Virus record (IMG/VR): IMGVR_UViG_3300005529_000006
Location: 1 to 64,000 of that record
Source: a virus
DNA: 64,000 bases
Direction: 5' to 3' (one strand)
Shown here: positions 14,897 through 39,094 of the stretch, one piece after another
How positions within the stretch are numbered: the stretch's first letter is position 1
Layout: the number at the start of each line of letters is the position of its first letter
Notes under the pieces: model-generated
Database searches by the model: none
The model's input: only the letters and a program-made list of their open reading frames with translations
Told to the model about the DNA's origin: nothing
Translations under genes and position numbers: made by a program

Positions 14897-15331
14897 CTAA
14901 TCGACCGTTACCGTACTGCCCATCTTCACTACGTAATGCCAGCCCAACGTCGCCCCACAACCTCTACCCGAACAGGTCTTGACGTAGTAGGCATAGACAA
15001 CGAAGTTCCCGTTCACCAGTCCGGCATCTGACGCATATGTAGCCACTCCATAAAACGGGTCAGTTCCAGATGATGGTTGCGGGAAGCTGTATCCTCCGTG
15101 ATACCAAGTGGTGCTGCCGCCACTCGGAGTGATTCCCAAGTACCCTTGTCGATACGGCAGTCTGTTGTCTATTGTGATCTGCACAACATTGCCGTTCTGA
15201 TCGACCGCATTGAGCCAGCACAACATGCTGGTCTTACCTCCACACGAATCTTGTGTGGTGGTATAGGTGGTTTGTCCGAACGACGCCAAAGACATCAGCA
15301 GGAACAACAAGGTGGTTGTTATTGTGCGCAT
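14897..15331 (-). CDS. secreted protein (signal peptide MRTITTTLLFLLMSLASFG|Q)
   Basis: Classic signal peptide followed by Gln; Thr/Gly-rich mature part. Confidence 0.5.
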   Translation of the reverse strand: MRTITTTLLFLLMSLASFGQTTYTTTQDSCGGKTSMLCWLNAVDQNGNVVQITIDNRLPYRQGYLGITPSGGSTTWYHGGYSFPQPSSGTDPFYGVATYASDAGLVNGNFVVYAYYVKTCSGRGCGATLGWHYVVKMGSTVTVD

Positions 15332-15492
15332 ACTCCCTTTCCTGGATAGAGTTTTGTGGTGATGTCATCGCCCTCAGTTACAGCAGCCATGAACACCGCT
15401 CCACACGAACAAACAAACCTCCATGTCCTCTCGTCATCAGTCTTGGTTTCCGTCCACTTATGACCAGTAGGCATGGAAATCAACTTGACCAT

Positions 15493-15786
15493 TTACGCCT
15501 CCTCAACACGCTTGAATATGTGCTTTGCTCCTTCATAGTGGTGCACATGATTGCTGCACGGATGAGCGAGATTGTCGGGATACAACAAATCTTGAAAAAC
15601 CCTTCCAGCAAACTCAGTGTGCTGAGTTGTCCCATCCTTGCCCACTAACATACAAATACAAAAGCCCGCTTTAGCGCGGGCCAGGGCGGGACGTGCAACT
15701 TCCCGGTCGAATTCGGCTGGATTATCTTTCGCTTGCTGTAATACCCGAGCAACAGTCTTTACGTCTTGCTCGGTTTTAACGGCCAC
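15493..15786 (-). CDS. hypothetical protein (97 aa)
   Basis: ORF. Confidence 0.4.
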   Translation of the reverse strand: MAVKTEQDVKTVARVLQQAKDNPAEFDREVARPALARAKAGFCICMLVGKDGTTQHTEFAGRVFQDLLYPDNLAHPCSNHVHHYEGAKHIFKRVEEA

Positions 15787-15864
15787 GTCAGAATCTTCTC
15801 CTTTCCCCGAACGTTGTGTCCGTTAAGGCACTTGATCGTGCCATAACTGTGCTTGCCGTCGGTC

Positions 15865-16173
15865 CTAACAAGCCTCCACATACTTAAACAATGCACTACC
15901 TTCCTCACTTGATTGGTTGGCCTTGCTACGATTTTGTGGCAGGGATGAACTGCGCTTCTTAGCTCCAACTTTGCTCTCATCGCCTCTCCTCTCGCATCGA
16001 ATAGAACAGAAACTTTGCTCGTCATTAGCAGTGCTGAGTGTGAATAATCCTCCACACCCATAGCACAGCCTTGCTGAATGCCTACAGGCCGCACACTCTT
16101 TGTGGCTCCTGCGCGTCCACACCTTGGGTTCCCCAGGCTCTCCCTCACCAAACCAGTTAGGATGAATTTTCAT
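15865..16173 (-). CDS. zinc-finger protein (CAACRHSARLCYGCGG...CSIRC)
   Basis: ATGA overlap with 16170..16652. Confidence 0.4.
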   Translation of the reverse strand: MKIHPNWFGEGEPGEPKVWTRRSHKECAACRHSARLCYGCGGLFTLSTANDEQSFCSIRCERRGDESKVGAKKRSSSLPQNRSKANQSSEEGSALFKYVEAC

Positions 16174-16652
16174 GCCCTTGCCCCACCTTCACTAAGATCA
16201 AACGCAAATCTTCCTGCACCCTCAGAACTCCAAACGAAGTCCTTAAAAACCCTCTCACCCTTGTCATCCCTGGAGTATTTCCACACACAGAGCGATGGCT
16301 TCATGCCTTGTGCACTGACCGAAGCGATAAACGCCTCAGTTCTGTCTGGATGCTTGCTTGGAGGAATCGCCATATCTGCATCCGTCAGCTCTCGATCTAC
16401 CGTCCAGGCATCACAGAGCAGGATCATGGCGGGATACTCATTTAACATCTCCCTCAACCAATCAGCCAGTTGATCCTTGAGTTCCACATTCTCCATGCCC
16501 TGAGACACATCCACGCCCTTGGCAATCTTCCCTTCCTTGTTGAGAAAGAGCACACAGGCAGGCAGATTGGTGGAGGCAGGATATTGTTTGGCCGCTGTCC
16601 TCATGGCCTCTTCAACAAATAGCTTGAGATCTTTCATGCCGCTCCTCCACAT
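16170..16652 (-). CDS. hypothetical protein (160 aa)
   Basis: ORF. Confidence 0.45.
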   Translation of the reverse strand: MWRSGMKDLKLFVEEAMRTAAKQYPASTNLPACVLFLNKEGKIAKGVDVSQGMENVELKDQLADWLREMLNEYPAMILLCDAWTVDRELTDADMAIPPSKHPDRTEAFIASVSAQGMKPSLCVWKYSRDDKGERVFKDFVWSSEGAGRFAFDLSEGGARA

Positions 16653-16879
16653 CTCCGGCTTGCTCCCACCGTCCTGTTTGGAATAAGAAAGTGGCCTATG
16701 AACTCCTGATAGCTCAGGAGTTCCACAGGCTCAGTAACTATCCCTTTTGCTGCCGCTCTCTCAGCCTTGAGTCTCGCTAACCTGCGAACCTCAAATGCCT
16801 GGTTAGAGCAGCGTTTGGTGCAGAACTTCTGTTTGTTGTGGTGCGGACTAAACTCCTGCTGACATTGCGGACAACGCAT
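16634..16879 (-). CDS. zinc-ribbon protein (CPQCQ...CTKRC)
   Basis: ORF. Confidence 0.4.
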   Translation of the reverse strand: MRCPQCQQEFSPHHNKQKFCTKRCSNQAFEVRRLARLKAERAAAKGIVTEPVELLSYQEFIGHFLIPNRTVGASRRCGGAA

Positions 16880-17054
16880 CCGGCACCTCCATTCCCCGAG
16901 TTTCTATTTCCCCTCTAAGCTCCTTGAGGGAATACTTAAAACACTTGGGATGTGCACTCGCTGCTTCCCAAGCTTGCTTTAGCTCCGCATCACTGAGATA
17001 GGGGAGCTTTACGCCCTCTGAGAAATCCCACACTAGCGACATGACATCCCCCAA
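16848..17054 (-). CDS. hypothetical protein (68 aa)
   Basis: ORF. Confidence 0.35.
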   Translation of the reverse strand: MGDVMSLVWDFSEGVKLPYLSDAELKQAWEAASAHPKCFKYSLKELRGEIETRGMEVPDALSAMSAGV

Positions 17055-17169
17055 ATAATTAAAGCGTCCATTAGCAGGACGCCCACATAGGTCACGATAA
17101 AGCGCCAGTTAAGTTTACCGACCAGCGCATGAGCCAACACCATGGCCCAGAACACCAGCACACCAGTGG

Positions 17170-17472
17170 TTATGAAGCTCTCCACGGCTCGAACCCCCTG
17201 CCAATCCGAATTGCATTGGCCTTGTCCAACAAGGCTTGCGCCCTGCGGACCATCTCGTTGAGGGTGTTCACATCAGCGATGTGGATAACCTTCTCTACCA
17301 GAGTTGGGGTAAGCTCGGGACTCTCATGCTCACCCAGAAACAACACCGCAGCTTGCTCCGCCGTCCTGCACGTACAGCCAATCGTGGCTGGTGCAGTCAT
17401 CGGCACACCATACAGGCTGTGCAGATATGCCGGACATTGTTTGTCATGCTGCATATTGCTCTCCTGAGGCAA
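17170..17472 (-). CDS. hypothetical protein (100 aa)
   Basis: ORF. Confidence 0.4.
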   Translation of the reverse strand: MPQESNMQHDKQCPAYLHSLYGVPMTAPATIGCTCRTAEQAAVLFLGEHESPELTPTLVEKVIHIADVNTLNEMVRRAQALLDKANAIRIGRGFEPWRAS

Positions 17473-17677
17473 AAAGCCTCACAGAGCAGTAAGTCCAGTG
17501 TTTTTGCCGTAGCTCACACTGGCAGTCATACTGCTCTGCGCGGCTCTTATAGATCAGCCACTCCACTCTCCAGCCATCTCTCCAGCCATGGCCATATCTC
17601 AAATATCGGAATCCCAATTGCCACCAATGGCTTGCCCTGCCACATCAAAATCCACGCAAATGGTTGGTAGGTGATGG

Positions 17678-17923
17678 TCATAGCAGCATCCCTTTCACAA
17701 TCTCCTGTAACTTAGGCCCACGGTCATAACCACAGCGACTATCGAAGCTACGAACCAAAGTGAACTTCCGGCCATTGAACAGAACCAACTCATGCCGATA
17801 GTGCTGAAACGCAATCTCCTTGCGTACTTCTTGCACATACGGTCTGTCCTTGGGCTCGCTGCCCCTGATCTGCAACTCACCGCTGCGAAGTTTTACCCAA
17901 TAGATCACTTGAGCACCTCCCAC
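17678..17923 (-). CDS. hypothetical protein (81 aa)
   Basis: ORF. Confidence 0.35.
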   Translation of the reverse strand: MGGAQVIYWVKLRSGELQIRGSEPKDRPYVQEVRKEIAFQHYRHELVLFNGRKFTLVRSFDSRCGYDRGPKLQEIVKGMLL

Positions 17924-18312
17924 TTTCTCCGTTTCCCATCACCCACTGGACTAACCACAGCCCGCATATAGTCTCGACTGTTAATGTCCTGTGCCAATGG
18001 GCCTTTCTGATATGCTCTCGCTTCCTTGGCAGTGCAGGCGTGCCAAGTGGGAGCATCAGCACATTGGGGCATGACCTCTACCCATTTCTTCTTGGGGATG
18101 AACTTCTCAGTGTTGTCTTCGTGGTTGTATAGCTTCCTGACTTGCCTCTCCAGGCTGTCTAACTCATCCATCTGCCGCTTGAACTCAAGTCCATCAATAC
18201 GTCTACAGATGCCAGCCTTCTCAGCCTTGGCAGAGATGACAAATAACTTACGCAGAGAGCTACGCTCACTCTCAATTGTCTCCAGCATCGACTTGAATTC
18301 TTTGTAGGTCAT
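17905..18312 (-). CDS. hypothetical protein (135 aa)
   Basis: ORF. Confidence 0.45.
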   Translation of the reverse strand: MTYKEFKSMLETIESERSSLRKLFVISAKAEKAGICRRIDGLEFKRQMDELDSLERQVRKLYNHEDNTEKFIPKKKWVEVMPQCADAPTWHACTAKEARAYQKGPLAQDINSRDYMRAVVSPVGDGKRRKWEVLK

Positions 18313-18515: not shown

Positions 18516-18561
18516 TCGATGCCCACTCAGTAGGCATCCAGCGAAGAAGCCCCATAAGGGG

Positions 18562-18966: not shown

Positions 18967-18993
18967 ATACCCAACTTTCGATTCCGCGGCAAG

Positions 18994-22044: not shown

Positions 22045-22233
22045 ATGAAAACAATCGCTACTATCTTGGTTTTGTGCTCTATGTCGTTCGCTTCGGCGCA
22101 CGTCGTAAGTCACGCAGCTAAGGAAGCCGTATCTATGTCTCCGGCTCACGCCGCTAAGCGTGTTGTTCAGGGAGCTAAATTGGCCTCCTTTCCCGTTCGT
22201 CATCCTAAGAAATCTGCCAAAGCGGTTTTCTAA
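22045..22233 (+). CDS. small secreted protein with an internal repeat (HAAKEAVS / AHAAKRVV)
   Basis: Signal peptide MKTIATILVLCSMSFASA. Confidence 0.35.
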   Translation: MKTIATILVLCSMSFASAHVVSHAAKEAVSMSPAHAAKRVVQGAKLASFPVRHPKKSAKAVF

Positions 22234-25560: not shown

Positions 25561-25875
25561 ATGGCAATCTTTAGTGCGATTTTAACCCCCTCGGACACAA
25601 CCGCTATCAAAGTAGCGGCTCTTGCAACCACCACTAGCTCCTCGGAACAAGCTCTGGGGACGAATGTGGTCTTCGCAATTAACGCCGATCAGGACATCAC
25701 AATTAAGTTTGGAATCGCTGGAATGGCAGCGGCTGCGACCACCGACTTCCGCATCCCCCAGAACCAGACCTTCACCTTCTTCACCGGAAGAAATTTCGAC
25801 CGTATCCGCGTCTTCAACCAGAGCGGCTCCACTGCGGCCAACGTTTACATTCAACCTCTCACTGTCCTTAGGTAA
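25561..25875 (+). CDS. putative virion protein (104 aa)
   Basis: ORF ending at the portal start. Confidence 0.45.
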   Translation: MAIFSAILTPSDTTAIKVAALATTTSSSEQALGTNVVFAINADQDITIKFGIAGMAAAATTDFRIPQNQTFTFFTGRNFDRIRVFNQSGSTAANVYIQPLTVLR

Positions 25876-27986
25876 TGGCGGAATATACAACCCCATCTGT
25901 AGCTCCCATGGTGAGCGTGTCGGACGATCCTAACGCCGACATCACCAATAAGGTCATCGAACATCTGCGCCGGATGAGGTATTTCCGCAAGCAGTATGAC
26001 CAGCGGAGAGCTTATTTCTATCGCCAATACTTGGGCCAGAGGGACCAGCGTTTTTATCCCGACAACATCACCCCCAGGGCAAACACCTTTGTCCCCTATC
26101 CGCTTAGCAACGTAGAGACCATTGTTTCTCGCGTTCTAGACGCTTTCTTCTCTTACGAAGACTGGTTCGAGGCAAAAGGCCGCTCTGCGCAAGACGAACC
26201 ATCTGCGGAGAAGATGCAGGTGGTTTTGTTGTATCTGCTCAAGAAAGGCAAGTTTATTCCTGCCTTCGAGAGCCTGGTCAGAAACATCTGTATCTACGGC
26301 CACGCAGCCATCAAGGTTGATTGGGACTGGGATTACGATTGGGTCACCTATTCCCAACCCATCCCCGCACTCGACGAGAACGGGATGCCGATTATCCAGC
26401 CCGTTCCCGACATGAACACAGGCCAGATCACGATGCAACCTGTGATCCAGGGCTACCAACCTGCCCGCAAACCTGTCCCTCGCGCCTGCCCCAGATTCAT
26501 CCCCATTGATGTTTATGATCTCCTCCTCGATCCGGATGGCGGAATCGTTGCGCATTTAACCGAACGCACCCTGGGCCAGATGCTCCGCGAGCAACAGATG
26601 AGCGTCGAGGCGGCCATGGAAGATCCTTCCAAGAAGCCCCTCTACATGCCCGCAGCGCTTAATCTCCTGGTCCATCGGGTAAGCGAGAACGTCAAGAGTC
26701 CAGATAATCCCCTGGACACGGTTATCCGATTAGCAGAGGTTTGGAATGAATACGATCAGACTCAGACCATTATCACTTACGGAGAGGATGCAGAGGCAAT
26801 CTCTTGGAAAGACCTCCGTGCGTCATATCGAGCTGCGGGTTACTCACCCTATAAGCGAAAAGTTTATGCAGGACAACCCCTCCTTCTCTACCACGGGGAA
26901 ATTCCTTTTATGCATAAACGTGCCCCCATCCTCGCCACTTCGTTCATAAAGATTCCTAACGAAGCTTTTGGCCTGGGGGCCATTGAGATCATCTCCGACC
27001 TAACCGAGTCCATGAACAAGTTCGTAAACATGATTACGGACAACTGGAACCTCGGCATCAATCGCCGCTTTGCCTTCGACGTGAACGCCGATATCGACCA
27101 CGAAGCACTCAACAGTTTCAACGTTCCCGGAGGCAAGGTAGCAGTCAACGGAGATCCCTCGAAGGTGATTCTCCCTCTGCCCTTCTTTACTCCCCAAGCA
27201 GGGGACTACCAAATCCTTGAACTCTTCAAGGGAATGGTCGAACAAACTTCAGGTGTCTCGGACTTCTATAACAAAGCCGTGGGATCGCCCACCGGCAATC
27301 GTACAGCGACTGGCATCAACTCAGTAATGCAGGAGAGCAACTTCCGCTTCAAGATGTTCATCCGGAACCTCGAAGTGGATGTCCTCCAACCCCTCCTCAA
27401 CATGTGCGCCTCGATGGTGCAGCAGTATGTGAAAGATCCCATCGAAGTGCAAATAACCGGGGAGATGCCTCAAATTAAAAAGTGGGTCGCACTTATGCCG
27501 GAGGAGCTTGTAGGCTCCATGGACTTCGACATGGTGGCTGCGAACTACGCCACCAACCGCATGATTAAACAGCGCAATATCATGGCCCTGTTTAACCTGG
27601 CCGCCGCGAGTCCGATCTTCGCGCCCTTCGTCAACCCCTACGAAACTCTCAAAGAGGTCTACAAGGCTTTCGAAATCCGCAATATCAACAAGCTTCTCTT
27701 CACCCCGCCCCAGGTGCAGATGATGCAGCTTGCACAACAGAAGCAACAGATCAACATGATGCTCCTGGAAAACATGATGAACGTCGAGGGCAAAGCACGT
27801 TTACAGCAATCGAAGCCGCAACCTGGCGGCAAGGGTCCTGATGGCCGTCCCCGACGACCGATGCAGCCCGAGGGCAAGATGCCAGGTGCTGGCCTCATGA
27901 GTCCAATCCTGGACCTCGCTCAATCCATGGGCGCTAACGGGCTCGGCCTGGAAGGTATGGGTCAAGTTCCTGGAGCTGAAGGATGA
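25875..27986 (+). CDS. putative portal protein
   Basis: 703 aa; first large gene after terminase in the morphogenesis block; Gln/Met/Pro-rich C-terminal tail. No motif-level confirmation. Confidence 0.55.
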   Translation: MAEYTTPSVAPMVSVSDDPNADITNKVIEHLRRMRYFRKQYDQRRAYFYRQYLGQRDQRFYPDNITPRANTFVPYPLSNVETIVSRVLDAFFSYEDWFEAKGRSAQDEPSAEKMQVVLLYLLKKGKFIPAFESLVRNICIYGHAAIKVDWDWDYDWVTYSQPIPALDENGMPIIQPVPDMNTGQITMQPVIQGYQPARKPVPRACPRFIPIDVYDLLLDPDGGIVAHLTERTLGQMLREQQMSVEAAMEDPSKKPLYMPAALNLLVHRVSENVKSPDNPLDTVIRLAEVWNEYDQTQTIITYGEDAEAISWKDLRASYRAAGYSPYKRKVYAGQPLLLYHGEIPFMHKRAPILATSFIKIPNEAFGLGAIEIISDLTESMNKFVNMITDNWNLGINRRFAFDVNADIDHEALNSFNVPGGKVAVNGDPSKVILPLPFFTPQAGDYQILELFKGMVEQTSGVSDFYNKAVGSPTGNRTATGINSVMQESNFRFKMFIRNLEVDVLQPLLNMCASMVQQYVKDPIEVQITGEMPQIKKWVALMPEELVGSMDFDMVAANYATNRMIKQRNIMALFNLAAASPIFAPFVNPYETLKEVYKAFEIRNINKLLFTPPQVQMMQLAQQKQQINMMLLENMMNVEGKARLQQSKPQPGGKGPDGRPRRPMQPEGKMPGAGLMSPILDLAQSMGANGLGLEGMGQVPGAEG

Positions 27987-31027: not shown

Positions 31028-32050
31028 ATGTTTAAGAAATTCCTGTCAGTTATCACTGACCTGTTCCTCTTCGTCCTGGGTTTTGGGGCTGATGTCGTCA
31101 CCGTAACTGCGGGGTCGGCAGGTAATGCAGGTAGCACAGCCGCCGAGCTGATTACCTACATGTCTGCCCGTCTCCTAGAAGTGGCCGAGTTCAATACGAT
31201 TCTCGACCAGTTTGGAGACAAGCATCCACTTCCTAGCAACTCCTCGAAGACGATTCGTTTCGTCCGTGAAGAGAAGCTGAGTGTAGCTTCGACCCCAACC
31301 CAGTTGTCGGAAGGCATTCCGCCCGATGCCGTTGGCATCACCCTCAACCAAATTGAAGCAACGATTGAGCAATATGGCTCCGTAGTTCGTCTGTCGGACC
31401 TGGCTGAGATCACCGCCCGCCACAACGTGGTAGAGCGCACGATCTACATCCTGGGCCTCCAGGCGGCTGAAACCTATGACCAGTTGATCTTCAACGTGCT
31501 CGACGCCGCGACCAATAACTATCGCCCCAACAACCGTGCGGGTGATACCTCGTTGGCTGGCTCTGACCTGGTTAGCTATAACGACCTGGTTGAACTGGAT
31601 GCTCTGCTCCAGGACCAAGGCGCTCGCCCCTTTGAAGGTGGAGAATACGTTTTCGTATGTCCCCCGCAGGTCTACTCCGGCCTGCTCCGTGATCCGGACT
31701 TCAAGGCGTCTAACCAGCTTCGCGCTCCGGAGAAAATCTGGCGTGGCGAAGTCGCCTCGCTTGGTGGGTTCCGAGTTATTCGCTCGAACTCCCCCTCGTT
31801 CGCTGCCACCTCTCAGGCTGGTGCCGGACAAGCCAGCAAGGTGTTCAGCTCGTTCGGCATTGCGCGGTTCGCATATCAGATTACTGATTTGCAGAACCTG
31901 CGTGTCTATGTGGTTGCCCCTGGCGGCCAGATCGACCCCCTCCAGCAATCCCGCAAGATCGGTTGGAAGTTCGCTTTCAAATCGGTCATCACGAACCAGA
32001 ACTGGATTCGTCGAGTGCGATCTGCTGGTGCGAACAGCGTCACTAACTAA
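31028..32050 (+). CDS. major capsid protein (lambda gpE / HK97-fold type)
   Basis: 340 aa, after the scaffold gene, with a strong stem-loop just downstream. Pattern DLVELDALLQDQGARPFEGGEYVFVCPPQVYSGLL resembles gpE-like capsid proteins (recollection). Confidence 0.6.
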   Translation: MFKKFLSVITDLFLFVLGFGADVVTVTAGSAGNAGSTAAELITYMSARLLEVAEFNTILDQFGDKHPLPSNSSKTIRFVREEKLSVASTPTQLSEGIPPDAVGITLNQIEATIEQYGSVVRLSDLAEITARHNVVERTIYILGLQAAETYDQLIFNVLDAATNNYRPNNRAGDTSLAGSDLVSYNDLVELDALLQDQGARPFEGGEYVFVCPPQVYSGLLRDPDFKASNQLRAPEKIWRGEVASLGGFRVIRSNSPSFAATSQAGAGQASKVFSSFGIARFAYQITDLQNLRVYVVAPGGQIDPLQQSRKIGWKFAFKSVITNQNWIRRVRSAGANSVTN

Positions 32051-32995: not shown

Positions 32996-33597
32996 CCCCC
33001 CAGATTTTTCTGGTTCGCCACGCCAAAACCCTTCTCAACAACGCATCGTCCGAGGCTATTCGTGGACACTCGGATATTCCCATTTCTGGTGAAGGCGAAG
33101 AGGCACTTAAGCAAACCGCTGAATTCCTCAAAGGTCATTCCATTAAACGCATCTTGGCCAGCCCCTTGCAACGCGCCATGATGACCGCCTTATTTATTGC
33201 GGACAAAATAGGGGCAAAGGTAACTCCCAACTCCGGTCTCACTCCTTGGGATCTCGGCAACCTAACAGGCAAACGCATAGAAGAAGTTGCCCCCAAGATG
33301 AACTATTACCAGGACTACCCCGACATAAAAGTTCCTGACGGCGAAAGCTATAGAGACTTTTATGATCGCTGGTCGCAAGCCCTGGACCGGATGTTGGCCT
33401 ATGCAGAGAAGCACCCCGACGAAATTCTCACGGGCGTAGTGCACTCGCGCAATCTTCTTTCTCTTCCTTCCATCATTGGCAAGCGACCTATGGGCGAAGT
33501 CCCAGTCAAAGGCGGTCCTCCTCCCGAGAGCGTAACTCGCGTCTACCTCGATGATGACACCTGGAAATACGAAACCATTTTTGAATTAAAGCAATGA
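32992..33597 (+). CDS. histidine phosphatase (phosphoglycerate-mutase-like) family protein
   Basis: IFLVRHAKT...RGHSDIPISGEGE...ASPLQRAMMTA; ATGA overlaps on both sides. Confidence 0.65.
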   Translation: MTPQIFLVRHAKTLLNNASSEAIRGHSDIPISGEGEEALKQTAEFLKGHSIKRILASPLQRAMMTALFIADKIGAKVTPNSGLTPWDLGNLTGKRIEEVAPKMNYYQDYPDIKVPDGESYRDFYDRWSQALDRMLAYAEKHPDEILTGVVHSRNLLSLPSIIGKRPMGEVPVKGGPPPESVTRVYLDDDTWKYETIFELKQ

Positions 33598-34109
33598 ACT
33601 TCCTAAAAAAGATTCTCCCCTGGATTGGAGCAGCTGCTACGGGCAACGTCCCGGCGCTTGTGTCCATGGCCGCGAACGCGGTTAGCGGAGCCCTCGGTAA
33701 CAAGGTTGACTCCAGCGTCGATTCCATTGTCTCCGCAGTGCAAGGCGCAACACCCGAACAGCTCGTAGCCTTAAAGCAAGCAGAGTTGGATTTTCAAGCC
33801 AAGATGCAAGCTATGGGCTTCTCTCACGAAGAGGAGCTTGCTCAGATTGAGGTCGCAGATCGCGACTCGGCTCGGGCCCGTGAAATCAGCGTTCGTGACT
33901 TCATGCCCAAGGTTCTCGGTGGGGGAGTGGTCGCGGGTTTCATTGTCGCTACGTTCCTCATCCTCACAGGTCACGGCAAAGCCGATAGCGTGATGGCCGG
34001 AACCCTTATTGGTTATCTCTCCGCAAAGGCAGAGCTTGTCCTCGCCTACTACTTCGGTAGCTCCGCTGGATCTGACCGCAAGACAGAACTCCTCGCCCAA
34101 GGTAAGTAA
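33594..34109 (+). CDS. holin-like membrane protein (resembles 3-TM GTA-type holins)
   Basis: Gly-rich N-terminal helix, ADRDSARARE motif, C-terminal TM segments; position after the lysin. Assignment from recollection. Confidence 0.4.
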   Translation: MNFLKKILPWIGAAATGNVPALVSMAANAVSGALGNKVDSSVDSIVSAVQGATPEQLVALKQAELDFQAKMQAMGFSHEEELAQIEVADRDSARAREISVRDFMPKVLGGGVVAGFIVATFLILTGHGKADSVMAGTLIGYLSAKAELVLAYYFGSSAGSDRKTELLAQGK

Positions 34110-37100
34110 TGAAGAAATACATTCTCCTGTTATTTTTGCTTGTCCCACTATTTGCTTGGGGACAAGCCAGTCGTGTGGATGGTCAGGTACTGGGGCCGAA
34201 CGGTCAGCCCGTTCATTTCCCCCTGGTCCGCGTTTGTACGGATACTTCTAACCTTGGTTCTGGGACGGTCTATTGCGGAACCACAAGCGGGGGACTAAAA
34301 ACCCTATTCACCGACATAACTGCTCAGGTGCAGTGTACCGGGTCCAACGGTTGTGCCAATCCGATCACTGGCGACTATAACGGCAACTACCATTTTTATT
34401 CCGCCCCTGGTAAAGCCATCGTTGAAGTTATTGTCAACGGTGTAGTTCAGGGGGATACCCCTGACACCATCATCCCCTGTGATCCCGATTTCAATTGCGG
34501 AACAGGCACTGGAGGTTCGTCCAGTATTCCCTTGGGTTCGCAAGGGCAATTCATTCAGTACACCGGAGTCGGAGATCTCACTAATCAAATCGGTCCCTCC
34601 AACATGCGGGATCTCACCGGCACTCTCACAATCCCAGATGTCTCGAATGTGGACTTTGGGGGACCGGGGGTAGGCAGTGCGCAGTTTAGTATGCGCGGGC
34701 TTAACTCTGGATTGGTTGTGGTTCGCGTGCAGGACGCGGCAGGTAATTACACCCTAACTTTACCAAACGGTCCTGGGCTAGCTAACCAAGTCCTAGCCAC
34801 AGATGGTGCAGGCAATCTCTCCTTTGTGACCCCTGCCGCAAGCGCTGTAGGTGCAGGCGCAGCCGGACAGGTAAGCGTCTACAACGGTCCTAATAGCGTA
34901 GGTGGTGACGCTCTCTTTACAGACTCAGGCAACACCCTCGCCTATACAGGCACCACCTTCACCCTCGGTAATGCTACCGCTGGAGTATTTAATACCTTTG
35001 ATGGTTTTAGTATAAGCACTGGGACAGGCATTAAGGATACAATCTCCAGCGGCACTAGCACCTCCGCTGGCCTTACATCCGGCAGGCACCTTATCATTCA
35101 AGCCCACGCCGGAACATCCACAGGCTTTGGAGGAGACCTATATCTCCAAGCTGTAGGTTCTACTTTCTCTGGGAACCAATCCTTCTCTCCGGGATGGGTC
35201 TATGTTCTGGGTGGAGTAAATACTGGCTCTAGCGGTGGCGGCATCGCCTTAATCCCCGGTGTGGGGAACACCACTCCTGCTTACGTCACAATAGGTTGTA
35301 ACGCCTCCAACGGCAGCCCTTGCGGCTCTCCGGGCAATCCTTCCAACCCCACAATCACTGGCAAGGTGGCGTTCGTAGGCAAGAATGGCGGCTCGGTCTT
35401 CTTGACCGTGCCGGACAACGTGGGTGGAGCTGTTACCTTAACGCTCCCTACCTCCACGGGTACGAATGGCCAAGTGATCTGCACGGACGGCACGGGAGTG
35501 CTGAGTTTCTGTAACCAAACTGGCGGAGGCGGGAGCGTATCTGGAAGCGGTACTACCAACACTCTTCCTAAGTTTACCGCTGCTACGGTCCTCGGAAACT
35601 CCGGCATCACGGATAACGGAACAACCGTCAACACAGCGGAGAACCTCTCGGTTGCATCCTCGACCGCTGCTACAGGTATTTCAAACGTCAACTCTCCGTT
35701 CTTTCAGGTCGCAGGCAACTCTTGGAACGGCGCGTCTGTCGCAGATGTCTGGAGCTTCCAGAACGTCGCTGGCGCAGGCACAAACCCCACCCAAACGCTG
35801 ACGATTACTCATAGCGGCTCAAGTGGTGCAGCCTCGATCTCGGCTGCCTTCCCCTTCACTATTGCGGGCTTAACCAGCACAGGCAACGTCAACTTAGGTG
35901 GAGCCTCTTCGGTAATCAACTCTACGCTCGGGAACGGCGCTCCCAACAACGCAACTTGCATTTCCACTGGACAGGAATACTTCCAGTTGGACGGGACCGC
36001 AGGGCAAGAGAAGTGGTATTGCAAGGGCAACGTCTGGACTCAGCAACTCAACTCAGGTGCGGCTGGAGCTAACGTCCAGTTAAGCAACCTCTCGGGTACG
36101 ACCGCGATTCCAGTCGCCCTTTTGCCAAACGCGGCTGGCACCTTGGCCTTCGGTAGCAACGCGCTCCCTTGGACCAGCGTGTTCATCGGTGGTGCAGCCA
36201 CAAACAACATCCAGCTTACGGGCACCGCAACGAGTGCTAAGGTAGCCACTCTCCCAGACAACACAGGCACGATTGCCGAATTGAATCTGGCGCAGACGTG
36301 GACTGCCAATCAAACATTTCCGGTTGTAATCTCTTCAGCCGCCAATCCAGCCAATGCCGGGTTTCTCCGCTTCTCGTCTGGAGATGCCCTCAGCTTCCGC
36401 AACAATGCGAACTCTGCCAATGTCAACGGCCTGAGCAAAGATACCTCGGATATTGTCCAAGTAGGCGATACGGCGGGTATCAAGCTAGCGGGTCCCCTCT
36501 CTAGCGTGGGCGCTGGCTCCGCACTGACGATTCGACCCACTCTGCAAACTGTCAATGGCACGGGTGGGGATTTGACTGTCGCCGCAGGTAATACCTCCGG
36601 CACAGGGGCCAACGGCAACCTTCACCTTTTGGCGGGCTCCGGCGGTTCTGGTACTCCCGGCGCAATTGACATCGGAACTTCCCCGTTCGCTGTCACTCTT
36701 CCAAACGACACTAGCAACGGAACTCTGCAATTCAATCTTGTCAGTGTTACCTCCACTGGCAACGCGATTCAAACCCCTGCTGGCTCCAATGCAGGCGTAG
36801 TTGGTATTGCGATCAGCGGCGCAGGCACTTCCGGTAGCGCAACCGTTGTCCAGCTCGGCCAGGTCAATTGCGTATTCGATCAGGCTGCCACACCTGGAAA
36901 CTATGTTGGCATCTCCGTTAGCAATAATGGGCAGTGCCATGATATCGGTGCAGTTCCAACTATCAACACTCAAGCCGTTGGAACAGTCTTGAGTTTGGTA
37001 TCGGGCACGACCTACAAGGTCCTCGTTGATCTCGGCTCGGCTCCTGGGGCGAACAGCAACAATACTGTCATCACTAACCCCGGCAGTACACAGCAAATCC

Positions 37101-39094
37101 AAGCTACCGCGCCTACCGCTGTTTCTCTTGTTGTAAAGCAACCTACCAGCGGGTCGGTTGATATTTTCCAAGTCCTGCTAGCCAACGGCACCAAAGCTTT
37201 CTACGTAGACAGCACGGGTGTTGTTCACTTCGGAACCGGGACTTCTTCGGTCACGTCTTCGGCGTTCATTAGTTCCGCTGCTAACCCTGCGGCTACGGGA
37301 GTTTTCCGTGCGGCATCTTCGGACGTTGGATTGGCTTTCCGCAACAACGCAAACACTGGCGATGTCACGATTGCCAAGAACAACTCCGATGTGTTGACCT
37401 TCAATGGCACTCCCGGCTTCGCGGTTACACAAGCCGGAGCAAGTTTCGGAGACACTGTATCCTTCACAACCCCCGCAGCAAACCGAACTATCACCTTTGC
37501 TGACCCCGGTGGGAATGACAGCGTGGCTTATCTCGCTGCGACCCAGACCTTCACGGGTAAAACTATTGGCACGGGTGGCTTGCTATTCGCTACCCAAACC
37601 GCTCCCGGCAACCCCGCTGGCGGCAACATCCTCCTGTATGCAGATAGCGGCACTGGCAACCTCGCTTGCTTAACCTCTGCTGGCGCAAACTGCTTGCCCT
37701 CTGCTGGAGGCGGCGGCACCGTAGCACTTAGCGCGATCACGGCTGCTACCAGTACACCCGCTGCTATTAACAACGCTAACTTCCCTCAGAAATGGAACTG
37801 GCAGCTTACGACCAACGGCACCAGTGGATTCACCTTTGGCGAGTTCGCAGCATCGACTGCCACTAGTTCTAACCTAGTAAACATCAAGACTCTCGCCTCT
37901 TCCACGTTAAACCCGTTGACCATTACTGCACTGGGCAACGTAAACGGACTTCAAGTAAACAACATCGGTGATCTTACCTTCTTGGGTACGGGCATGTTGG
38001 ATACTGGAACATCCTCCCAGACAGGTAGTGAGTGTGCCAATGAAGGTGTTACAGGTACAACCAACGGCCTCGTCGCCAAACTTAACACTTCCAACCAATG
38101 CATCAAGGCCACTACGTCTGATGTAGCTGGCGTGGAAGGTATCGTCGTCAAGGGCGGCGGCACAAGTGGTAACGCTGTCATCGCTACCTCCGGCGTGGTC
38201 AGTTGCACGTTTTCCAATACCGCAGTGGTAGGAGATTACGTTGGTGTCTCGACTACTACGGGTGGTGACTGCTTAGACTTAGGCTCTCAGCCTACCGCAG
38301 GCACACAGGTCTTAGGACGGGCGTTGACTGCTGGTGCAGGTAGCCAATCTGTCCTCGTCTACGGGCGCGGGATGCTTGCAATCACAGGCGTACCCAACCG
38401 CGTCACTACAGCCTTCGCTGGTGGTGTTCTTACTCTGTCTCTCCCTCAGGATATCGCCACCACATCAATCGTCCAGTTCGGCGGAGTTAAGAGCGGCACT
38501 TCTGGTATTTCCGGCTCCAGCGGCACCAACTCTTACGATGTCCGTTGCGGCATTGATGGCACTGCTTCTCAGGTCTGTGTGCTCACGGTTCGTGGCGCAG
38601 ACTTCTCCGGCACTGGCAACAACAACGGCGGTGCCTTCGTAGCGAGAGGCGGAAACACTGGCTCCAACGGTTCAGGTGTTGCCGGGAACGCTGACTTCCA
38701 AGCTGGACAAGACACAGGAAGCGGCGGAAACAACGGTCACATTCAGATCGACGGCGCTTATGTCAAAGGCGCTACCTACACTACTGGAAACACTCAATGC
38801 TTCACTGCTGACAATACCGTTCAGGATTGCGGCACTAGCGCGGTGAACTTCGTAGGTGTGGCTGTAAGCTCCAACGGCAGCTCCGCCATAGTCGCTCTCT
38901 CCGGCACTCAAGTCCTCGTCAACTATGACGCAACCGTTAGCCCCTCAGCGGGATGGTTCGCGTGCTCAAGCGCCAGCGTAGCTGGCAAAGCCACTGCCCA
39001 ATCAGGAGCTTGCTCCGCAGGCAGAACCATTGGAGTCATCGAAAAAGGTGGAACGAATGTTACGAGCGGTAACGTTACTCTGGCTCATTTCTAA
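34109..39094 (+). CDS. giant fiber-like protein (1661 aa) with N-terminal signal peptide
   Basis: MKKYILLLFLLVPLFAWG|Q; Gly/Thr/Ser/Ala-rich with internal ~300-aa repeats (SSAANPANAGFLRFSSGDALSFRNNANSANV / SSAANPAATGVFRAASSDVGLAFRNNANTGDV). Confidence 0.6.
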   Translation: MKKYILLLFLLVPLFAWGQASRVDGQVLGPNGQPVHFPLVRVCTDTSNLGSGTVYCGTTSGGLKTLFTDITAQVQCTGSNGCANPITGDYNGNYHFYSAPGKAIVEVIVNGVVQGDTPDTIIPCDPDFNCGTGTGGSSSIPLGSQGQFIQYTGVGDLTNQIGPSNMRDLTGTLTIPDVSNVDFGGPGVGSAQFSMRGLNSGLVVVRVQDAAGNYTLTLPNGPGLANQVLATDGAGNLSFVTPAASAVGAGAAGQVSVYNGPNSVGGDALFTDSGNTLAYTGTTFTLGNATAGVFNTFDGFSISTGTGIKDTISSGTSTSAGLTSGRHLIIQAHAGTSTGFGGDLYLQAVGSTFSGNQSFSPGWVYVLGGVNTGSSGGGIALIPGVGNTTPAYVTIGCNASNGSPCGSPGNPSNPTITGKVAFVGKNGGSVFLTVPDNVGGAVTLTLPTSTGTNGQVICTDGTGVLSFCNQTGGGGSVSGSGTTNTLPKFTAATVLGNSGITDNGTTVNTAENLSVASSTAATGISNVNSPFFQVAGNSWNGASVADVWSFQNVAGAGTNPTQTLTITHSGSSGAASISAAFPFTIAGLTSTGNVNLGGASSVINSTLGNGAPNNATCISTGQEYFQLDGTAGQEKWYCKGNVWTQQLNSGAAGANVQLSNLSGTTAIPVALLPNAAGTLAFGSNALPWTSVFIGGAATNNIQLTGTATSAKVATLPDNTGTIAELNLAQTWTANQTFPVVISSAANPANAGFLRFSSGDALSFRNNANSANVNGLSKDTSDIVQVGDTAGIKLAGPLSSVGAGSALTIRPTLQTVNGTGGDLTVAAGNTSGTGANGNLHLLAGSGGSGTPGAIDIGTSPFAVTLPNDTSNGTLQFNLVSVTSTGNAIQTPAGSNAGVVGIAISGAGTSGSATVVQLGQVNCVFDQAATPGNYVGISVSNNGQCHDIGAVPTINTQAVGTVLSLVSGTTYKVLVDLGSAPGANSNNTVITNPGSTQQIQATAPTAVSLVVKQPTSGSVDIFQVLLANGTKAFYVDSTGVVHFGTGTSSVTSSAFISSAANPAATGVFRAASSDVGLAFRNNANTGDVTIAKNNSDVLTFNGTPGFAVTQAGASFGDTVSFTTPAANRTITFADPGGNDSVAYLAATQTFTGKTIGTGGLLFATQTAPGNPAGGNILLYADSGTGNLACLTSAGANCLPSAGGGGTVALSAITAATSTPAAINNANFPQKWNWQLTTNGTSGFTFGEFAASTATSSNLVNIKTLASSTLNPLTITALGNVNGLQVNNIGDLTFLGTGMLDTGTSSQTGSECANEGVTGTTNGLVAKLNTSNQCIKATTSDVAGVEGIVVKGGGTSGNAVIATSGVVSCTFSNTAVVGDYVGVSTTTGGDCLDLGSQPTAGTQVLGRALTAGAGSQSVLVYGRGMLAITGVPNRVTTAFAGGVLTLSLPQDIATTSIVQFGGVKSGTSGISGSSGTNSYDVRCGIDGTASQVCVLTVRGADFSGTGNNNGGAFVARGGNTGSNGSGVAGNADFQAGQDTGSGGNNGHIQIDGAYVKGATYTTGNTQCFTADNTVQDCGTSAVNFVGVAVSSNGSSAIVALSGTQVLVNYDATVSPSAGWFACSSASVAGKATAQSGACSAGRTIGVIEKGGTNVTSGNVTLAHF

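What the first reader, a model, noticed from the sequence alone, without database searches (positions are those of the whole stretch)
14897..39094. Three proteins with signal peptides ending ...FG|Q / ...WG|Q: host is probably a Bacteroidota member and the phage exports large proteins
MRTITTTLLFLLMSLASFGQ (14897..15331), MKKYILLLFLLVPLFAWGQ (34109..) and ...LLWLISNALAFGQ (39030..) all end in Gly-Gln, the signature of Bacteroidota signal peptidase I substrates (N-terminal pyroglutamate). Together with the near absence of Shine-Dalgarno sequences (many ATGA/TAATG couplings instead), this points to a Bacteroidota host despite the ~55% GC. Signal peptides on 1661- and 1010-aa fiber-like proteins are unusual for virion components. 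These proteins may be secreted or surface-displayed (possibly T9SS-dependent) rather than, or in addition to, being virion-borne.
Basis: inference. Interest (0 to 1): 0.55.

Follow-up and report, generated by a model that had tools for sequence, protein, structure and literature searches.

The report
Phage tail-module proteins carrying export signals
A soil podophage puts genuine export signal peptides, all cut just before a glutamine, on two giant fibre- and tailspike-like proteins; that signature does not mark a Bacteroidota host, and Acidobacteriota is the more likely one.

Summary
Three proteins start with canonical Sec-type signal peptides ending [A/S]-[F/W]-G|Q. That 4-mer occurs only 3 times in 17,018 aa, always at residues 16-20 (0/2000 shuffles).

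The phage is a ~67-kb SU10-like podovirus from a metagenome.
- **Shine-Dalgarno:** present at 27/40 early genes, so not "nearly absent". It is rare only in the late arm (5/37).
- **T9SS:** no T9SS C-terminal domain was found.
- **Gln at +1:** not Bacteroidota-specific. In 64 labelled Acidobacteriota loci, Gln is the first strongly polar residue after the hydrophobic core in 28/63 signal peptides. The same ...AAWGQ, ...TAWGQ and ...AFAQ endings occur there.
- **Host:** most likely Acidobacteriota, but unproven.

The two giants form an 8-kb cassette that a sibling phage in the same sample lacks.
- **1001-aa protein:** signal peptide, two Ig-like domains and a tailspike/polysaccharide-lyase beta-helix. 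Relatives of the helix nearly all carry ...Q signal peptides, some in phage tail modules and some in cellular EPS clusters.
- **1661-aa protein:** a fibre-like orphan with 13 close cysteine pairs.

Across related and unrelated phages, 26/33 signal peptides expose Gln. The likeliest reading is Sec export and oxidative folding of glycan-directed proteins. Whether they end up on virions is open.

The parts
14897..15331 (-). Early-arm gene for a 144-aa secreted protein. The signal peptide is residues 1-19 (15275..15331), MRTITTTLLFLLMSLASFG|Q. The mature part has 4 Cys and no known family.
   Evidence: No relatives in IMG/VR. It is a cluster of one in the protein collection.
34109..34162 (+). Signal peptide of the 1661-aa protein, MKKYILLLFLLVPLFAWG, with cleavage predicted before Q19.
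   Evidence: The -3/-1 rule is met (A-W-G).
34109..39094 (+). 1661-aa fibre-like orphan. It consists of a signal peptide, a beta-sandwich N-domain (about 34163-34588), and a long G/S/T/A/N-rich body with 26 Cys forming 13 close pairs. It also carries repeats of the form 'TLTLPxxxGxxGQV(L/I)xTDGxGxLSF' at 34745-34828 and 35396-35512.
   Evidence: N-domain similarity to proteins at the fibre locus of relatives is weak, by pairwise BLASTP only: 28% over 121 aa to L009 (E 1e-5), and L009 to L006 40% over 57 aa (E 7e-7).
39057..39110 (+). Signal peptide of the 1001-aa protein, MLRAVTLLWLISNALAFG, with cleavage predicted before Q19.
39057..42062 (+). 1001-aa protein: signal peptide, short linker, two He_PIG Ig-like domains (about 39204-39740), and a 765-aa right-handed beta-helix domain (39765-42059). 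It has 24 Cys.
   Evidence: He_PIG E 6e-17. The beta-helix family has 2352 relatives. The AF2 model with alignment A4 has pLDDT 67 and pTM 0.78. Foldseek top hits are the HK620 and Sf6 tailspikes, PL6 lyases and a K1 capsule lyase, and podovirus tailspikes and tail fibres.
34109..42062 (+). The 8-kb variable cassette (both giant genes). It is inserted between the conserved 171-aa gene and the adaptor gene, and is absent from the sibling phage L098 found in the same assembly.
   Evidence: blastn colinearity: L098 15627-16556 matches window 32619-33536, and L098 17275-18468 matches window 42219-43427.
33594..34109 (+). Conserved 171-aa gene (phrog_1544) that forms the left border of the cassette. 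Its stop overlaps the ATG of the 1661-aa gene.
42063..43259 (+). SU10-type adaptor gene, the right border of the cassette. It starts directly after the stop of the 1001-aa gene.
   Evidence: PF24175, E 1.2e-8.
25875..27986 (+). SU10/P22-type portal, the marker used to define the phage family.
   Evidence: PF23899, E 2e-28. 456 relatives, all on contigs of at most about 69.6 kb.
31028..32050 (+). Major capsid protein with a signal-peptide-LIKE N-terminus, MFKKFLSVITDLFLFVLGFGA|DVVTV. This serves as an internal caveat and control: there is no Gln, and only 1 Cys.
   Evidence: PF25209. The feature is conserved in all relatives.
22045..22233 (+). 62-aa late-arm ORF with a fourth SPase-I-type signal peptide, MKTIATILVLCSMSFASA|H. 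It does not expose Gln.
10474..11352 (-). Band_7/HflK-like lipoprotein, MRKSLLGVVLLLMAGVG|C. This is an SPase II type signal, shown for contrast.

Best explanation
The three N-termini are functional Sec signal peptides adapted to the host's signal peptidase I, which in this host prefers ...A/S-x-G/A | Gln.

The window is most of a ~67-kb SU10-like podophage. Two of the peptides head the products of an 8-kb swap-in cassette in the late operon, immediately upstream of the adaptor gene.
- **First product (1661 aa):** a fibre-like protein with a beta-sandwich N-domain and 13 local Cys pairs.
- **Second product (1001 aa):** two Ig-like He_PIG domains followed by a tailspike/polysaccharide-lyase-type beta-helix.

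**Proposed mechanism.** The anatomy is shown; the steps below are inferred.
1. Both proteins are made late with the structural proteins and threaded through Sec.
2. They are cleaved to expose Gln, which may be cyclised.
3. Their disulfides are formed outside the cytoplasm.
4. They act on envelope or extracellular polysaccharide of the infected cell. Candidate roles are receptor destruction, loosening of the EPS matrix for egress, and exclusion of superinfecting phage.
5. They are released at lysis. Whether they then also dock onto virions is not decided.

The 144-aa early protein is a small secreted accessory factor.

The Gln at +1 reflects a host habit that is not restricted to Bacteroidota. 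The host is most probably an Acidobacteriota member (Terriglobia/Bryobacterales-like). No T9SS is involved.
For: **Signal peptides**
- Canonical n/h/c regions, with an identical c-region motif found only at these three N-termini.
- Across the portal family, two unrelated phage contigs and one prophage, I counted 26 of 33 signal peptides on late-module proteins that expose Gln (p = 6e-15). The count was curated by eye.

**Extracytoplasmic character**
- Signal-peptide-bearing proteins have 2.15% Cys, mostly in even numbers. The 1661-aa protein has 26 Cys, forming 13 pairs spaced 6-22 residues apart.
- The window's core virion proteins (portal, TerL, MCP, adaptor, nozzle, and the 413- and 1672-aa proteins) have 0-0.4% Cys.

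**Beta-helix domain**
- Tailspike/lyase fold.
- 2352 relatives. Roughly two-thirds of the 60 best-scoring ones I read start with ...[AFW][GA]Q signal peptides.
- Relatives occur in phage tail modules (L095, L097, L104, prophage L103). They also occur in cellular contexts, including an exosortase/glycosyltransferase EPS cluster (L128). This parallels the Tat-exported tailspike-like EPS glycanase WceF (PMC7949094).

**Cassette nature**
- It is an 8-kb indel relative to a co-assembled sibling phage. That sibling instead carries about 7.5 kb of large, mostly signal-peptide-bearing genes upstream of its portal.

**Host**
- 7 of 8 named He_PIG hits are Acidobacteriota.
- The AAWGQ family is Bryobacteraceae/Bryobacterales.
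- In labelled Acidobacteriota loci, Gln is the first strongly polar residue after the hydrophobic core in 28/63 signal peptides (16.5% expected, p = 2e-7). 25 peptides end in aromatic-[AG]-Q.
- SD use is 42% there against 39% in the phage.
- No T9SS CTD.
Against: - No signal-peptide predictor or experiment was available, so export and cleavage are inferred from sequence.
- The major capsid protein, which must stay cytoplasmic, also has a hydrophobic signal-peptide-like N-terminus in every relative. A hydrophobic N-terminus alone is therefore not proof of export here.
- Position next to the adaptor, the tailspike fold, and a weakly similar N-domain in an SP-less 1326-aa protein at the same locus (L006) all fit ordinary virion fibres.
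- This phage has no other obvious fibre gene apart from the enlarged nozzle.
- Some SP-less variable proteins are Cys-rich too (L098 562 aa, L006 1326 aa).
- The host assignment rests on indirect evidence. No prophage in a named genome, CRISPR match or tRNA att site was found.
- The negative controls for my Q statistic are small and not clean.
- My heuristic cleavage-site calls gave only 25-26% Gln at +1. The higher figures depend on a simpler statistic and on reading by eye.
Confidence: 0.55

Rival explanations
1. The host is a Bacteroidota member, the Gly-Gln ends are classic Bacteroidetes Q-rule sites, and the giants may be T9SS cargo.
For: - Gln at +1 in all three window proteins, and in 26/33 phage signal peptides by my count. 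That is as high as the ~71% Bacteroidetes average (PMC5837995).
- MKK-type n-regions.
- Late genes lack SD and use A-rich leaders.
- One metagenome contig with a distant beta-helix relative looks Bacteroidota-like: GC 48%, with neighbours carrying ...Q signal peptides (L127).
- P. gingivalis phages are known to encode Q-rule proteins (PMC10367356).
Against: - 27/40 early genes carry GGAG/GAGG (p = 6.5e-15), whereas Bacteroidia ribosomes ignore SD (PMC7797042).
- No T9SS CTD.
- GC is 53-61% in the phage group, and 60% in a bacterial contig with a related prophage module.
- Named homologues are Acidobacteriota.
- The Gln signature is shown to occur outside Bacteroidota.
Confidence: 0.07
2. The two giants are simply the phage's tail fibre and tailspike, assembled in the cytoplasm like any other. 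The hydrophobic N-termini are not used for export. They might be a membrane-tethering or assembly element, or a remnant of capture from a host gene.
For: - They lie in the tail module directly upstream of the adaptor.
- Tailspike fold.
- An N-domain weakly shared with an SP-less 1326-aa protein at the same locus.
- Every family member carries about 8 kb of such genes at one of two hot spots, as expected for indispensable receptor-binding proteins.
- This phage has no other fibre candidate.
- The capsid protein also has a signal-peptide-like N-terminus.
Against: - A mere hydrophobic tether would not need the -3/-1 residues and the host-typical +1 Gln. These are kept in 26/33 cases across unrelated phages, while the capsid pseudo-signal lacks them.
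- There are many close Cys pairs, against almost none in the core virion proteins.
- Cellular relatives of the beta-helix are secreted proteins.
- No recognisable particle-binding domain was found.
Confidence: 0.25
3. Artefact: chance hydrophobic N-termini, or wrongly chosen start codons.
For: The third ORF's longest start (TTG 39030) is not the real one, and start choice is uncertain for many small ORFs.
Against: - 0/2000 shuffles reproduce the pattern.
- Independent public gene calls give the same starts.
- The feature recurs in many relatives.
Confidence: 0.01

Closest known systems
Bacteroidetes 'Q-rule' substrates of signal peptidase I (Bochtler et al. 2018, PMC5837995; Szczesniak et al. 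2023, PMC10653852)
   Same: Sec signal peptide with small residues at -3 and -1, and Gln as the new N-terminus. The Gln frequency among the phage-encoded signal peptides (26/33) is in the Bacteroidetes range.
   Different: - The host here is probably not Bacteroidota: it uses SD, has high GC, and the named relatives are Acidobacteriota.
- Cyclisation to pyroglutamate and a host glutaminyl cyclase were not tested.
- The papers call the rule exclusive to Bacteroidetes but compared only five groups. My sample of Acidobacteriota loci shows a similar habit.
Q-rule signal-peptide proteins of Porphyromonas gingivalis phages (Matrishin et al. 2023, PMC10367356)
   Same: - Phage genes whose products obey the host's +1 Gln habit and are predicted to use the host Sec system.
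- The same paper also notes capsid proteins with signal-peptide-like N-termini, as seen here.
   Different: - Those are a handful of genes of unknown function in siphovirus-like prophages of an oral Bacteroidota species.
- Here the signal sits on 1001- and 1661-aa tailspike/fibre-like proteins inside the tail module of a soil podophage, and recurs across several phage lineages.
Podovirus tailspike depolymerases (P22, Sf6, HK620)
   Same: Right-handed parallel beta-helix. Foldseek E 1.7e-5 and probability 1.0 to HK620 and Sf6. The gene lies next to the adaptor/nozzle genes of a P22/SU10-type tail.
   Different: - N-terminus is a signal peptide plus two Ig-like domains, rather than a particle-binding domain.
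- 24 Cys.
- No sequence match in 50,697 GenBank phages.
- Global TM-scores are low (0.2-0.3), so only the fold class is established.
WceF of Pantoea stewartii, a bacterial exported tailspike-like EPS glycanase (PMC7949094)
   Same: A tailspike-fold beta-helix carrying an N-terminal export signal, and acting (there) on the cell's own exopolysaccharide. One cellular relative of the window's domain sits in an exosortase/glycosyltransferase EPS cluster (L128).
   Different: - WceF uses a Tat signal and is chromosomal.
- The window's protein has a Sec-type signal and is phage-encoded in a late operon.
- No sequence similarity was tested beyond fold class.
Signal-peptide 'morons' next to tail-fibre genes (lambda Lom/Bor, T5 Llp, phi80/N15 Cor). 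This comparison rests on my own knowledge.
   Same: Exported proteins encoded within or beside the tail gene block. They change the infected cell's surface through receptor masking or exclusion.
   Different: Those are small outer-membrane proteins or lipoproteins (about 60-200 aa). Here two giants occupy 12% of the genome and have fibre/tailspike architecture.
Phage SU10 / Kuravirus-type podoviruses
   Same: Portal (PF23899) and adaptor (PF24175) families, and the overall late gene order.
   Different: - Only about 20-24% portal identity to any cultured phage.
- ~67-kb genome with two tyrosine recombinases and a family A DNA polymerase.

Membership tests
Sec / signal peptidase I signal peptide | Basic n-region, uncharged hydrophobic h-region of about 8-15 residues, small uncharged residues at -3 and -1, and no Pro at +1 | tested here: met
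   MR-, MKK- and MLR- n-regions. Cores of 12-14 residues. S-F-G|Q, A-W-G|Q and A-F-G|Q.
Sec / signal peptidase I signal peptide | Actual translocation and cleavage | not testable with these tools
   No SignalP, no proteomics. The capsid protein's signal-peptide-like N-terminus shows that hydrophobicity alone is not sufficient evidence.
Lipoprotein (SPase II) or Tat signal | A lipobox ending in Cys at +1, or a twin-arginine motif in the n-region | tested here: not met
   No Cys at +1 and no RR in any of the three. For contrast, the Band_7 protein at 10474-11352 has ...AGVG|C.
Bacteroidetes Q-rule substrate | Gln immediately after the SPase I site | tested here: met
   All three window proteins. 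By my count, 26/33 signal peptides in related phage loci.
Bacteroidetes Q-rule substrate | The organism belongs to Bacteroidota | tested here: not met
   - SD at 27/40 early starts, against SD-blind Bacteroidia ribosomes (PMC7797042).
- GC 53-61%.
- Named relatives are Acidobacteriota.
- The evidence is indirect, so Bacteroidota is not excluded outright (about 0.07).
Bacteroidetes Q-rule substrate | Cyclisation of the N-terminal Gln by a periplasmic glutaminyl cyclase | not testable with these tools
   Needs N-terminal mass spectrometry and the host genome.
T9SS cargo | A C-terminal sorting domain (TIGR04183 Por_Secre_tail / PF18962, or TIGR04131) | tested here: not met
   No hit in Pfam or NCBIfam for the whole proteins (E <= 0.01 and 0.1), or in Pfam for the C-terminal 361 aa of the 1661-aa protein (E <= 5). 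The C-termini ...NVTLAHF and ...VHGPYVY do not resemble CTDs.
Tailspike / polysaccharide depolymerase beta-helix | Right-handed parallel beta-helix fold | tested here: met
   AF2 model with pLDDT 67 and pTM 0.78. Foldseek hits HK620 and Sf6 tailspikes at E 1.7e-5 to 4e-5 with probability 0.99-1.0, plus PL6 lyases, Pel9A and phage depolymerases. TM-scores are only 0.2-0.3.
Tailspike / polysaccharide depolymerase beta-helix | An N-terminal particle-binding (anchor) domain that attaches the spike to the tail | tested here: inconclusive
   Pfam, PHROGs and PDB sequence searches recognised none. The N-terminus is a signal peptide plus He_PIG domains. A novel anchor cannot be excluded.
Tailspike / polysaccharide depolymerase beta-helix | Trimeric assembly and glycanase/lyase activity | not tested
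   The alignment has invariant His, Glu, Asp and Arg columns (A4), but no active site was mapped.
SU10-like podovirus (structural module) | SU10-type portal and adaptor proteins | tested here: met
   PF23899 at E 2e-28 and PF24175 at E 1.2e-8.

The most novel reading that the evidence does not exclude
In a whole group of soil phages, probably infecting Acidobacteriota, the receptor-binding fibres and tailspikes are routinely sent through the host Sec system. They are cut by signal peptidase I to a Gln N-terminus and acquire their many disulfides in the periplasm. Tail fibres would therefore mature outside the cytoplasm and meet the DNA-filled particles only at or after lysis. A corollary is that the 'Q-rule', published as exclusive to Bacteroidota, also holds in Acidobacteriota.
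Probability: 0.17. Interest if true: 0.85.

Novelty: new variant of a known kind. Interest (0 to 1): 0.6.

Why it matters
1. **A warning for host prediction.** A Gln after the signal peptide cannot be used as a Bacteroidota marker. In my sample of labelled Acidobacteriota loci it is the commonest residue at that place. This contradicts the stated exclusivity of the Q-rule and is easy to test on complete proteomes.

2. **A routing question for phage proteins.** Tailed-phage fibres and tailspikes are textbook cytoplasmic assembly products. Here, several unrelated phage lineages put host-adapted export signals on exactly these proteins. Either they are a widespread class of phage-encoded secreted glycan-active proteins (for egress, receptor destruction or exclusion in EPS-rich soil bacteria), or virion parts are matured in the periplasm. 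Either outcome is informative about phages of Acidobacteriota, an abundant soil phylum whose phages I believe remain poorly known (my own knowledge; my paper searches were not designed to test this).

3. **A new enzyme family.** The beta-helix family has 2352 relatives, no Pfam model, and no match in GenBank phages. It is a candidate source of new polysaccharide depolymerases.

Tried and rejected
- **Word-indexed homologue search with the 1661-aa protein** returned only one protein, sharing a short repeat. The protein remains an orphan in Pfam, PHROGs, NCBIfam, PDB and IMG/VR.
- **Named-genome scan with a portal alignment** found no prophage. There is no tRNA or tRNA fragment near the integrases. 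So there is no att-based or prophage-based host call.
- **A He_PIG alignment headed by the phage sequence** was too degenerate for the genome scan. I used the AAWGQ He_PIG family instead. That labels the signal-peptide style, not the phage.
- **Integrase tblastn against plasmids and phages** gave only about 25% identity to Firmicutes elements, which is database bias and uninformative.
- **Window proteins against 1.5 Mb of labelled loci** gave only He_PIG hits and weak sigma-factor hits.
- **Single-sequence AF2 of the beta-helix** failed (pLDDT 30). It worked with alignment A4.
- **My first cleavage-site heuristics** were noisy: 25-26% Gln at +1, with many visibly miscalled A|Q sites. I replaced them with the 'first strongly polar residue' statistic. 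An unfiltered six-frame scan of phage loci was useless.
- **Accession searches in papers** did not identify the samples or the GCA_038211475.1 genome.
- **An internal second start that would give an SP-less isoform:** GTG 34175 exists in the 1661-aa gene but has a poor RBS. The 1001-aa gene has no start codon before 39324. I rejected this as a general mechanism.
- **PEP-CTERM or Solibacter C-terminal domains** were not found.

Full report
**What the window is.** The 64-kb window (GC 52.8%) is most of a ~67.3-kb metagenomic phage genome.
- The same proteins lie on ENA contig ERZ27279688:k141_3087895 (67,277 bp). Relative to that contig the window is circularly permuted: the contig end corresponds to window position ~14,780, my arithmetic.
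- The structural genes are of the SU10/P22 podovirus type: large terminase 20352-21863, portal 25875-27986 (PF23899, E 2e-28), capsid protein 31028-32050, adaptor 42063-43259 (PF24175).
- A 1334-aa nozzle-like protein and a 1672-aa internal-protein-like gene follow. The window also holds two tyrosine recombinases and a family A DNA polymerase.
- No cultured phage is closer than about 20-24% portal identity.
- In metagenomes the portal family has 456 members. Among the 120 best listed, none lies on a contig longer than about 69.6 kb, so no integrated copy with host flanks was seen.

**The observation.** The three quoted N-termini are there.
- The first gene is on the minus strand. The third starts at ATG 39057, not at the longest possible start TTG 39030.
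- All three have a basic n-region, a hydrophobic core of 12-14 residues, and [A/S]-[F/W]-G|Q, which satisfies the -3/-1 rule.
- The 4-mer [AS][FW]GQ occurs three times in 17,018 aa of window proteins, each time at residues 16-20. The expected number in such a position is 0.02, and 0 of 2000 shuffles gave three.
- There are no lipoboxes and no twin arginines. Two further signals exist: a 62-aa ORF (..SFASA|H, 22045-22233) and a Band_7 lipoprotein.

**Translation signals.**
- Using public gene calls plus my own, GGAG/GAGG lies at -4..-14 of 27/40 early-arm starts (background 13%, p = 6.5e-15).
- In the late arm the figure is 5/37 (background 7%, not significant).
- Bacteroidia ribosomes do not recognise SD (PMC7797042, PMC6847099), so a phage whose early genes are under strong SD selection is unlikely to infect them.

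**Is Gln after the signal peptide diagnostic of Bacteroidota?**
- The founding paper compared only Bacteroidetes, Chlorobi, Spirochaetes, Chlamydiae and Cyanobacteria, and saw a continuum elsewhere in the FCB group. A later paper calls the rule exclusive to Bacteroidetes.
- The homologue search with the 1001-aa protein hit He_PIG giants. Of those with names, 7 of 8 are Acidobacteriota (Bryobacter aggregatus, Bryobacteraceae, Bryobacterales, Terriglobales, Ca. Acidiferrum).
- Many of these hits start with ...AAWGQ...AVWAQ or ...AVWGQ. One such cluster carries the NCBI name Bryobacteraceae.
- A scan of named genomes with that family returned 79 loci. About 64 are Acidobacteriota, including the isolate Paludibaculum fermentans, and 9 are Verrucomicrobiota (lineage).
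- In the Acidobacteriota loci, Gln is the commonest residue at my heuristically called +1 position: 25% against 3.7% background.
- It is also the first strongly polar residue after the hydrophobic core in 28/63 high-confidence signal peptides (16.5% expected, p = 2e-7). Eight more have A|Q two or three residues further on.
- Twenty-five signal peptides end in aromatic-[AG]-Q, for example MRTLLGLMLFVCTAWGQ.
- Verrucomicrobiota (0/12) and a Bdellovibrio-like locus gave none, but these controls are small.
- SD use at signal-peptide-validated starts in these loci is 42%, against 39% for the phage overall.
- No searchable paper links glutaminyl cyclase with Acidobacteria.
- The signature is therefore not specific to Bacteroidota, and it matches Acidobacteriota in detail.

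**T9SS.** Neither giant has a T9SS C-terminal domain in Pfam or NCBIfam, whether searched whole or in pieces. No PEP-CTERM-type or Solibacter C-terminal domains were found either.

**The two giant proteins.** They are translationally coupled within the late operon. The stop of the 171-aa gene overlaps ATG 34109, the second giant gene overlaps the first by 38 nt, and the adaptor starts one base after the stop at 42062.

*A cassette, not a core component.*
- Phage L098, co-assembled in the same sample, is colinear on both sides but has about 0.7 kb where the window has about 8.7 kb. L008 and L010 also lack any gene there.
- Conversely, L098 has about 7.5 kb of large genes upstream of its portal, where the window has only small ORFs. 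Three of those five genes carry signal peptides (..SAFG|Q..SSFA|V..CFA|Q).
- Other relatives carry signal-peptide proteins at one or both of these hot spots: L009 ..AFA|Q; L099 ..AFG|Q..AFS|Q..AAA|Q; L100 ..GLA|Q..AHA|Q; L101 ..GAA|Q..GLA|Q..GYA|Q.

*The 1001-aa protein.*
- It consists of a signal peptide, two He_PIG Ig-like domains (E 6e-17) and a 765-aa domain with no Pfam, PHROG or PDB sequence match.
- An exhaustive HMMER search found 2352 relatives of that domain. Seventy-three have E <= 1e-30, with about 35% identity over nearly its full length.
- Roughly two-thirds of the 60 best-scoring relatives I read begin with signal peptides ending ...[AFW][GA]Q.
- With ten of them as an alignment, AlphaFold gave a mainly beta model (pLDDT 67, pTM 0.78).
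- Its best Foldseek matches are the HK620 and Sf6 tailspikes (E 1.7e-5, probability 1.0), PL6 alginate lyases, a K1 capsule lyase and pectate lyase Pel9A.
- Among viral models, the best matches are podovirus tail-fibre, tailspike and pectate-lyase proteins. TM-scores are low (0.2-0.3), so only the fold class is secure.
- The domain is absent from 50,697 GenBank phages and from PLSDB plasmids.
- Relatives occur in phage tail modules:
  - L095: consecutive 1477-aa ..AIA|Q, 864-aa ..CWS|Q and 111-aa ..LLA|Q genes ahead of its tail genes.
  - L097: a 776-aa protein ..ASA|QNTRVDG... followed by a beta-helix homologue of at least 1060 aa, ..ACG|Q.
  - L104.
  - The prophage in L103, on a 60%-GC bacterial contig beside pyruvate dehydrogenase genes.
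- Relatives also occur in cellular contexts, one inside an exosortase/asparagine-synthase/glycosyltransferase EPS cluster (L128).
- The closest functional analogue I found is WceF, a Tat-exported bacterial tailspike-like EPS glycanase.

*The 1661-aa protein.*
- It is an orphan. After the signal peptide comes a beta-sandwich-like N-domain (QASRVDGQVLGPNGQPV...VRVC...NPITGDYNGNYHFY).
- This domain recurs behind signal peptides in L009, L097 and L100, and without a signal peptide in the 1326-aa L006 protein at the same locus. These similarities are weak, with pairwise E of 1e-5 to 7e-7.
- The rest is G/S/T/A/N-rich. It has repeats of the type ...TLTLPxxxGxxGQVxxTDGxGxLSF.
- Its 26 Cys form 13 neighbouring pairs spaced 6-22 residues apart.

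**Export or virion?**

*For export.*
- By my curated count, 26 of 33 signal peptides on such proteins across these phages keep the -3/-1 residues and the +1 Gln.
- The capsid protein's hydrophobic N-terminus (MFKKFL...LGFGA|DVVTV, conserved in all relatives) has neither feature.
- Signal-peptide proteins have 2.15% Cys, mostly in even numbers. The window's core virion proteins (portal, terminase, capsid, adaptor, nozzle, and the 413- and 1672-aa proteins) have 0-0.4%.
- Cellular relatives are secreted proteins.

*For ordinary virion fibres.*
- Position, fold, and the SP-less L006 homologue.
- Every genome carries about 8 kb of these genes at one hot spot or the other.
- This phage has no other obvious fibre gene.
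- Some SP-less variable proteins are Cys-rich too.

I therefore hold that export and extracytoplasmic folding are likely (about 0.55-0.6). I leave open whether the exported proteins act free (receptor or EPS destruction, egress, exclusion) or also join particles at lysis.

**Host.** There is no direct link.
- The window has no tRNA gene.
- An Rfam scan around the integrases found no tRNA fragment.
- No prophage was found in named genomes.
- I could not do a CRISPR spacer search.
- The indirect evidence favours Acidobacteriota (about 0.6) over Bacteroidota (about 0.07): SD use, GC, named relatives, and the signal-peptide style.

**Verdict.**
- The Bacteroidota and T9SS inference is not supported.
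- The idea that the phage exports large tail-module proteins is supported by sequence evidence, and it generalises to several phage lineages.
- I rate it a new variant of known kinds (phage depolymerase/tailspike genes, and signal-peptide 'morons'), with a more radical reading not excluded.

Noticed in passing
window 3471-3488(+), 4522-4539(-), 19478-19495(+, 1 mismatch), 19837-19854(-), 29564-29581(-), 43259-43276(+), 52373-52390(-), 55371-55388(+), 61716-61733(+): The 18-mer AACCCCTTTTTAGGTAGG occurs 9 times (8 exact; 0.05 expected), in both orientations and without extended flanks. Several copies abut start codons: 43278 (nozzle-like gene), 55390 (small tyrosine recombinase), and, in reverse orientation, 29583. 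One inverted pair brackets about 340 bp of the divergent early/late intergenic region. It could be an operator or promoter, a translational element, or a recombinase site (an invertible segment?). It remains unexplained.
   Followed up: partly
L099 1890-1912, 2271-2292, 16217-16244, 16764-16785: A relative (74% portal identity) has its own analogous ~22-nt repeat, TCCTCGCAAAAACGGGGTTAGGA, in inverted pairs 363 and 520 nt apart. One pair flanks the histidine-phosphatase gene. The window's exact 18-mer is absent from all relatives. Such motifs therefore look like a family trait with phage-specific sequence.
   Followed up: partly
window 1-19700 (- strand genes) versus 19900-56300 (+ strand genes): There is a sharp split in ribosome-binding sites. 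68% of early-arm starts have GGAG/GAGG, against 14% of late-arm starts. The late starts mostly have A-rich leaders with AAGG/TAGG and many overlapping stop/start junctions. This suggests different translation-initiation regimes for early and late genes.
   Followed up: partly
window 31028-31090 (N-terminus of the capsid protein), and the capsid genes of L005-L013 and L099-L101: The major capsid protein of every family member begins with a signal-peptide-like segment (MFKKFL..F.LGFG[AP]|DVVTVT) without Gln at +1. The same oddity was reported for P. gingivalis phages (PMC10367356). Its role is unknown; it could be a cleaved delta-like segment or membrane-associated assembly.
   Followed up: no
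labelled loci L014-L093 (Acidobacteriota subset): Acidobacteriota signal peptides show a Q-rule-like habit. Gln is the first strongly polar residue after the hydrophobic core in 28/63 peptides, and the top residue at the predicted +1 position. The literature describes this as exclusive to Bacteroidota.
   Followed up: partly
window as a whole; L001, L003, L098: The window is circularly permuted relative to the 67,277-bp ENA contig, consistent with a complete circular or terminally redundant genome. A 67,189-bp sibling phage (77% portal identity) sits in the same assembly, with its variable genes moved to a different hot spot.
   Followed up: partly
window 55390-56259(+) and 56890-58143(-): There are two tyrosine recombinases. 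Yet among the 120 best of 456 portal relatives, none is on a contig longer than about 69.6 kb, and no tRNA-like att fragment lies nearby. The integrases may serve plasmid-prophage maintenance, inversion or dimer resolution rather than chromosomal integration.
   Followed up: no
window 32618-33597: A SleB-type cell-wall hydrolase (PF07486) and a histidine phosphatase (PF00300, E 7e-29) lie between the capsid gene and the tail module. The phosphatase is kept in all relatives I examined. The hydrolase gene is replaced in some relatives by Tlde1- or SLT-type genes. A conserved phosphatase in a structural module is unusual.
   Followed up: no
window 43278-47282: The nozzle-like protein is 1334 aa here, against 828 aa in L008, L010 and L098. 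The extra ~1.5 kb is in the middle of the gene. It could itself carry receptor-binding function.
   Followed up: no
L103 5000-23690 (NCBI GCA_038211475.1, contig JBBQVN010000007.1): A prophage lies next to pyruvate dehydrogenase genes on a 60%-GC bacterial contig. It has three consecutive large signal-peptide proteins ahead of its terminase and portal: 542 aa (..ACA|Q), 1229 aa (..CAG|Q, a homologue of the window's beta-helix) and 735 aa (Beta_helix). Naming this genome would give a host for the module.
   Followed up: partly
window 5551-6078(-): The phage encodes an ECF-type sigma factor (Sigma70_r4), sitting among early genes that include several small zinc-ribbon-like ORFs.
   Followed up: no
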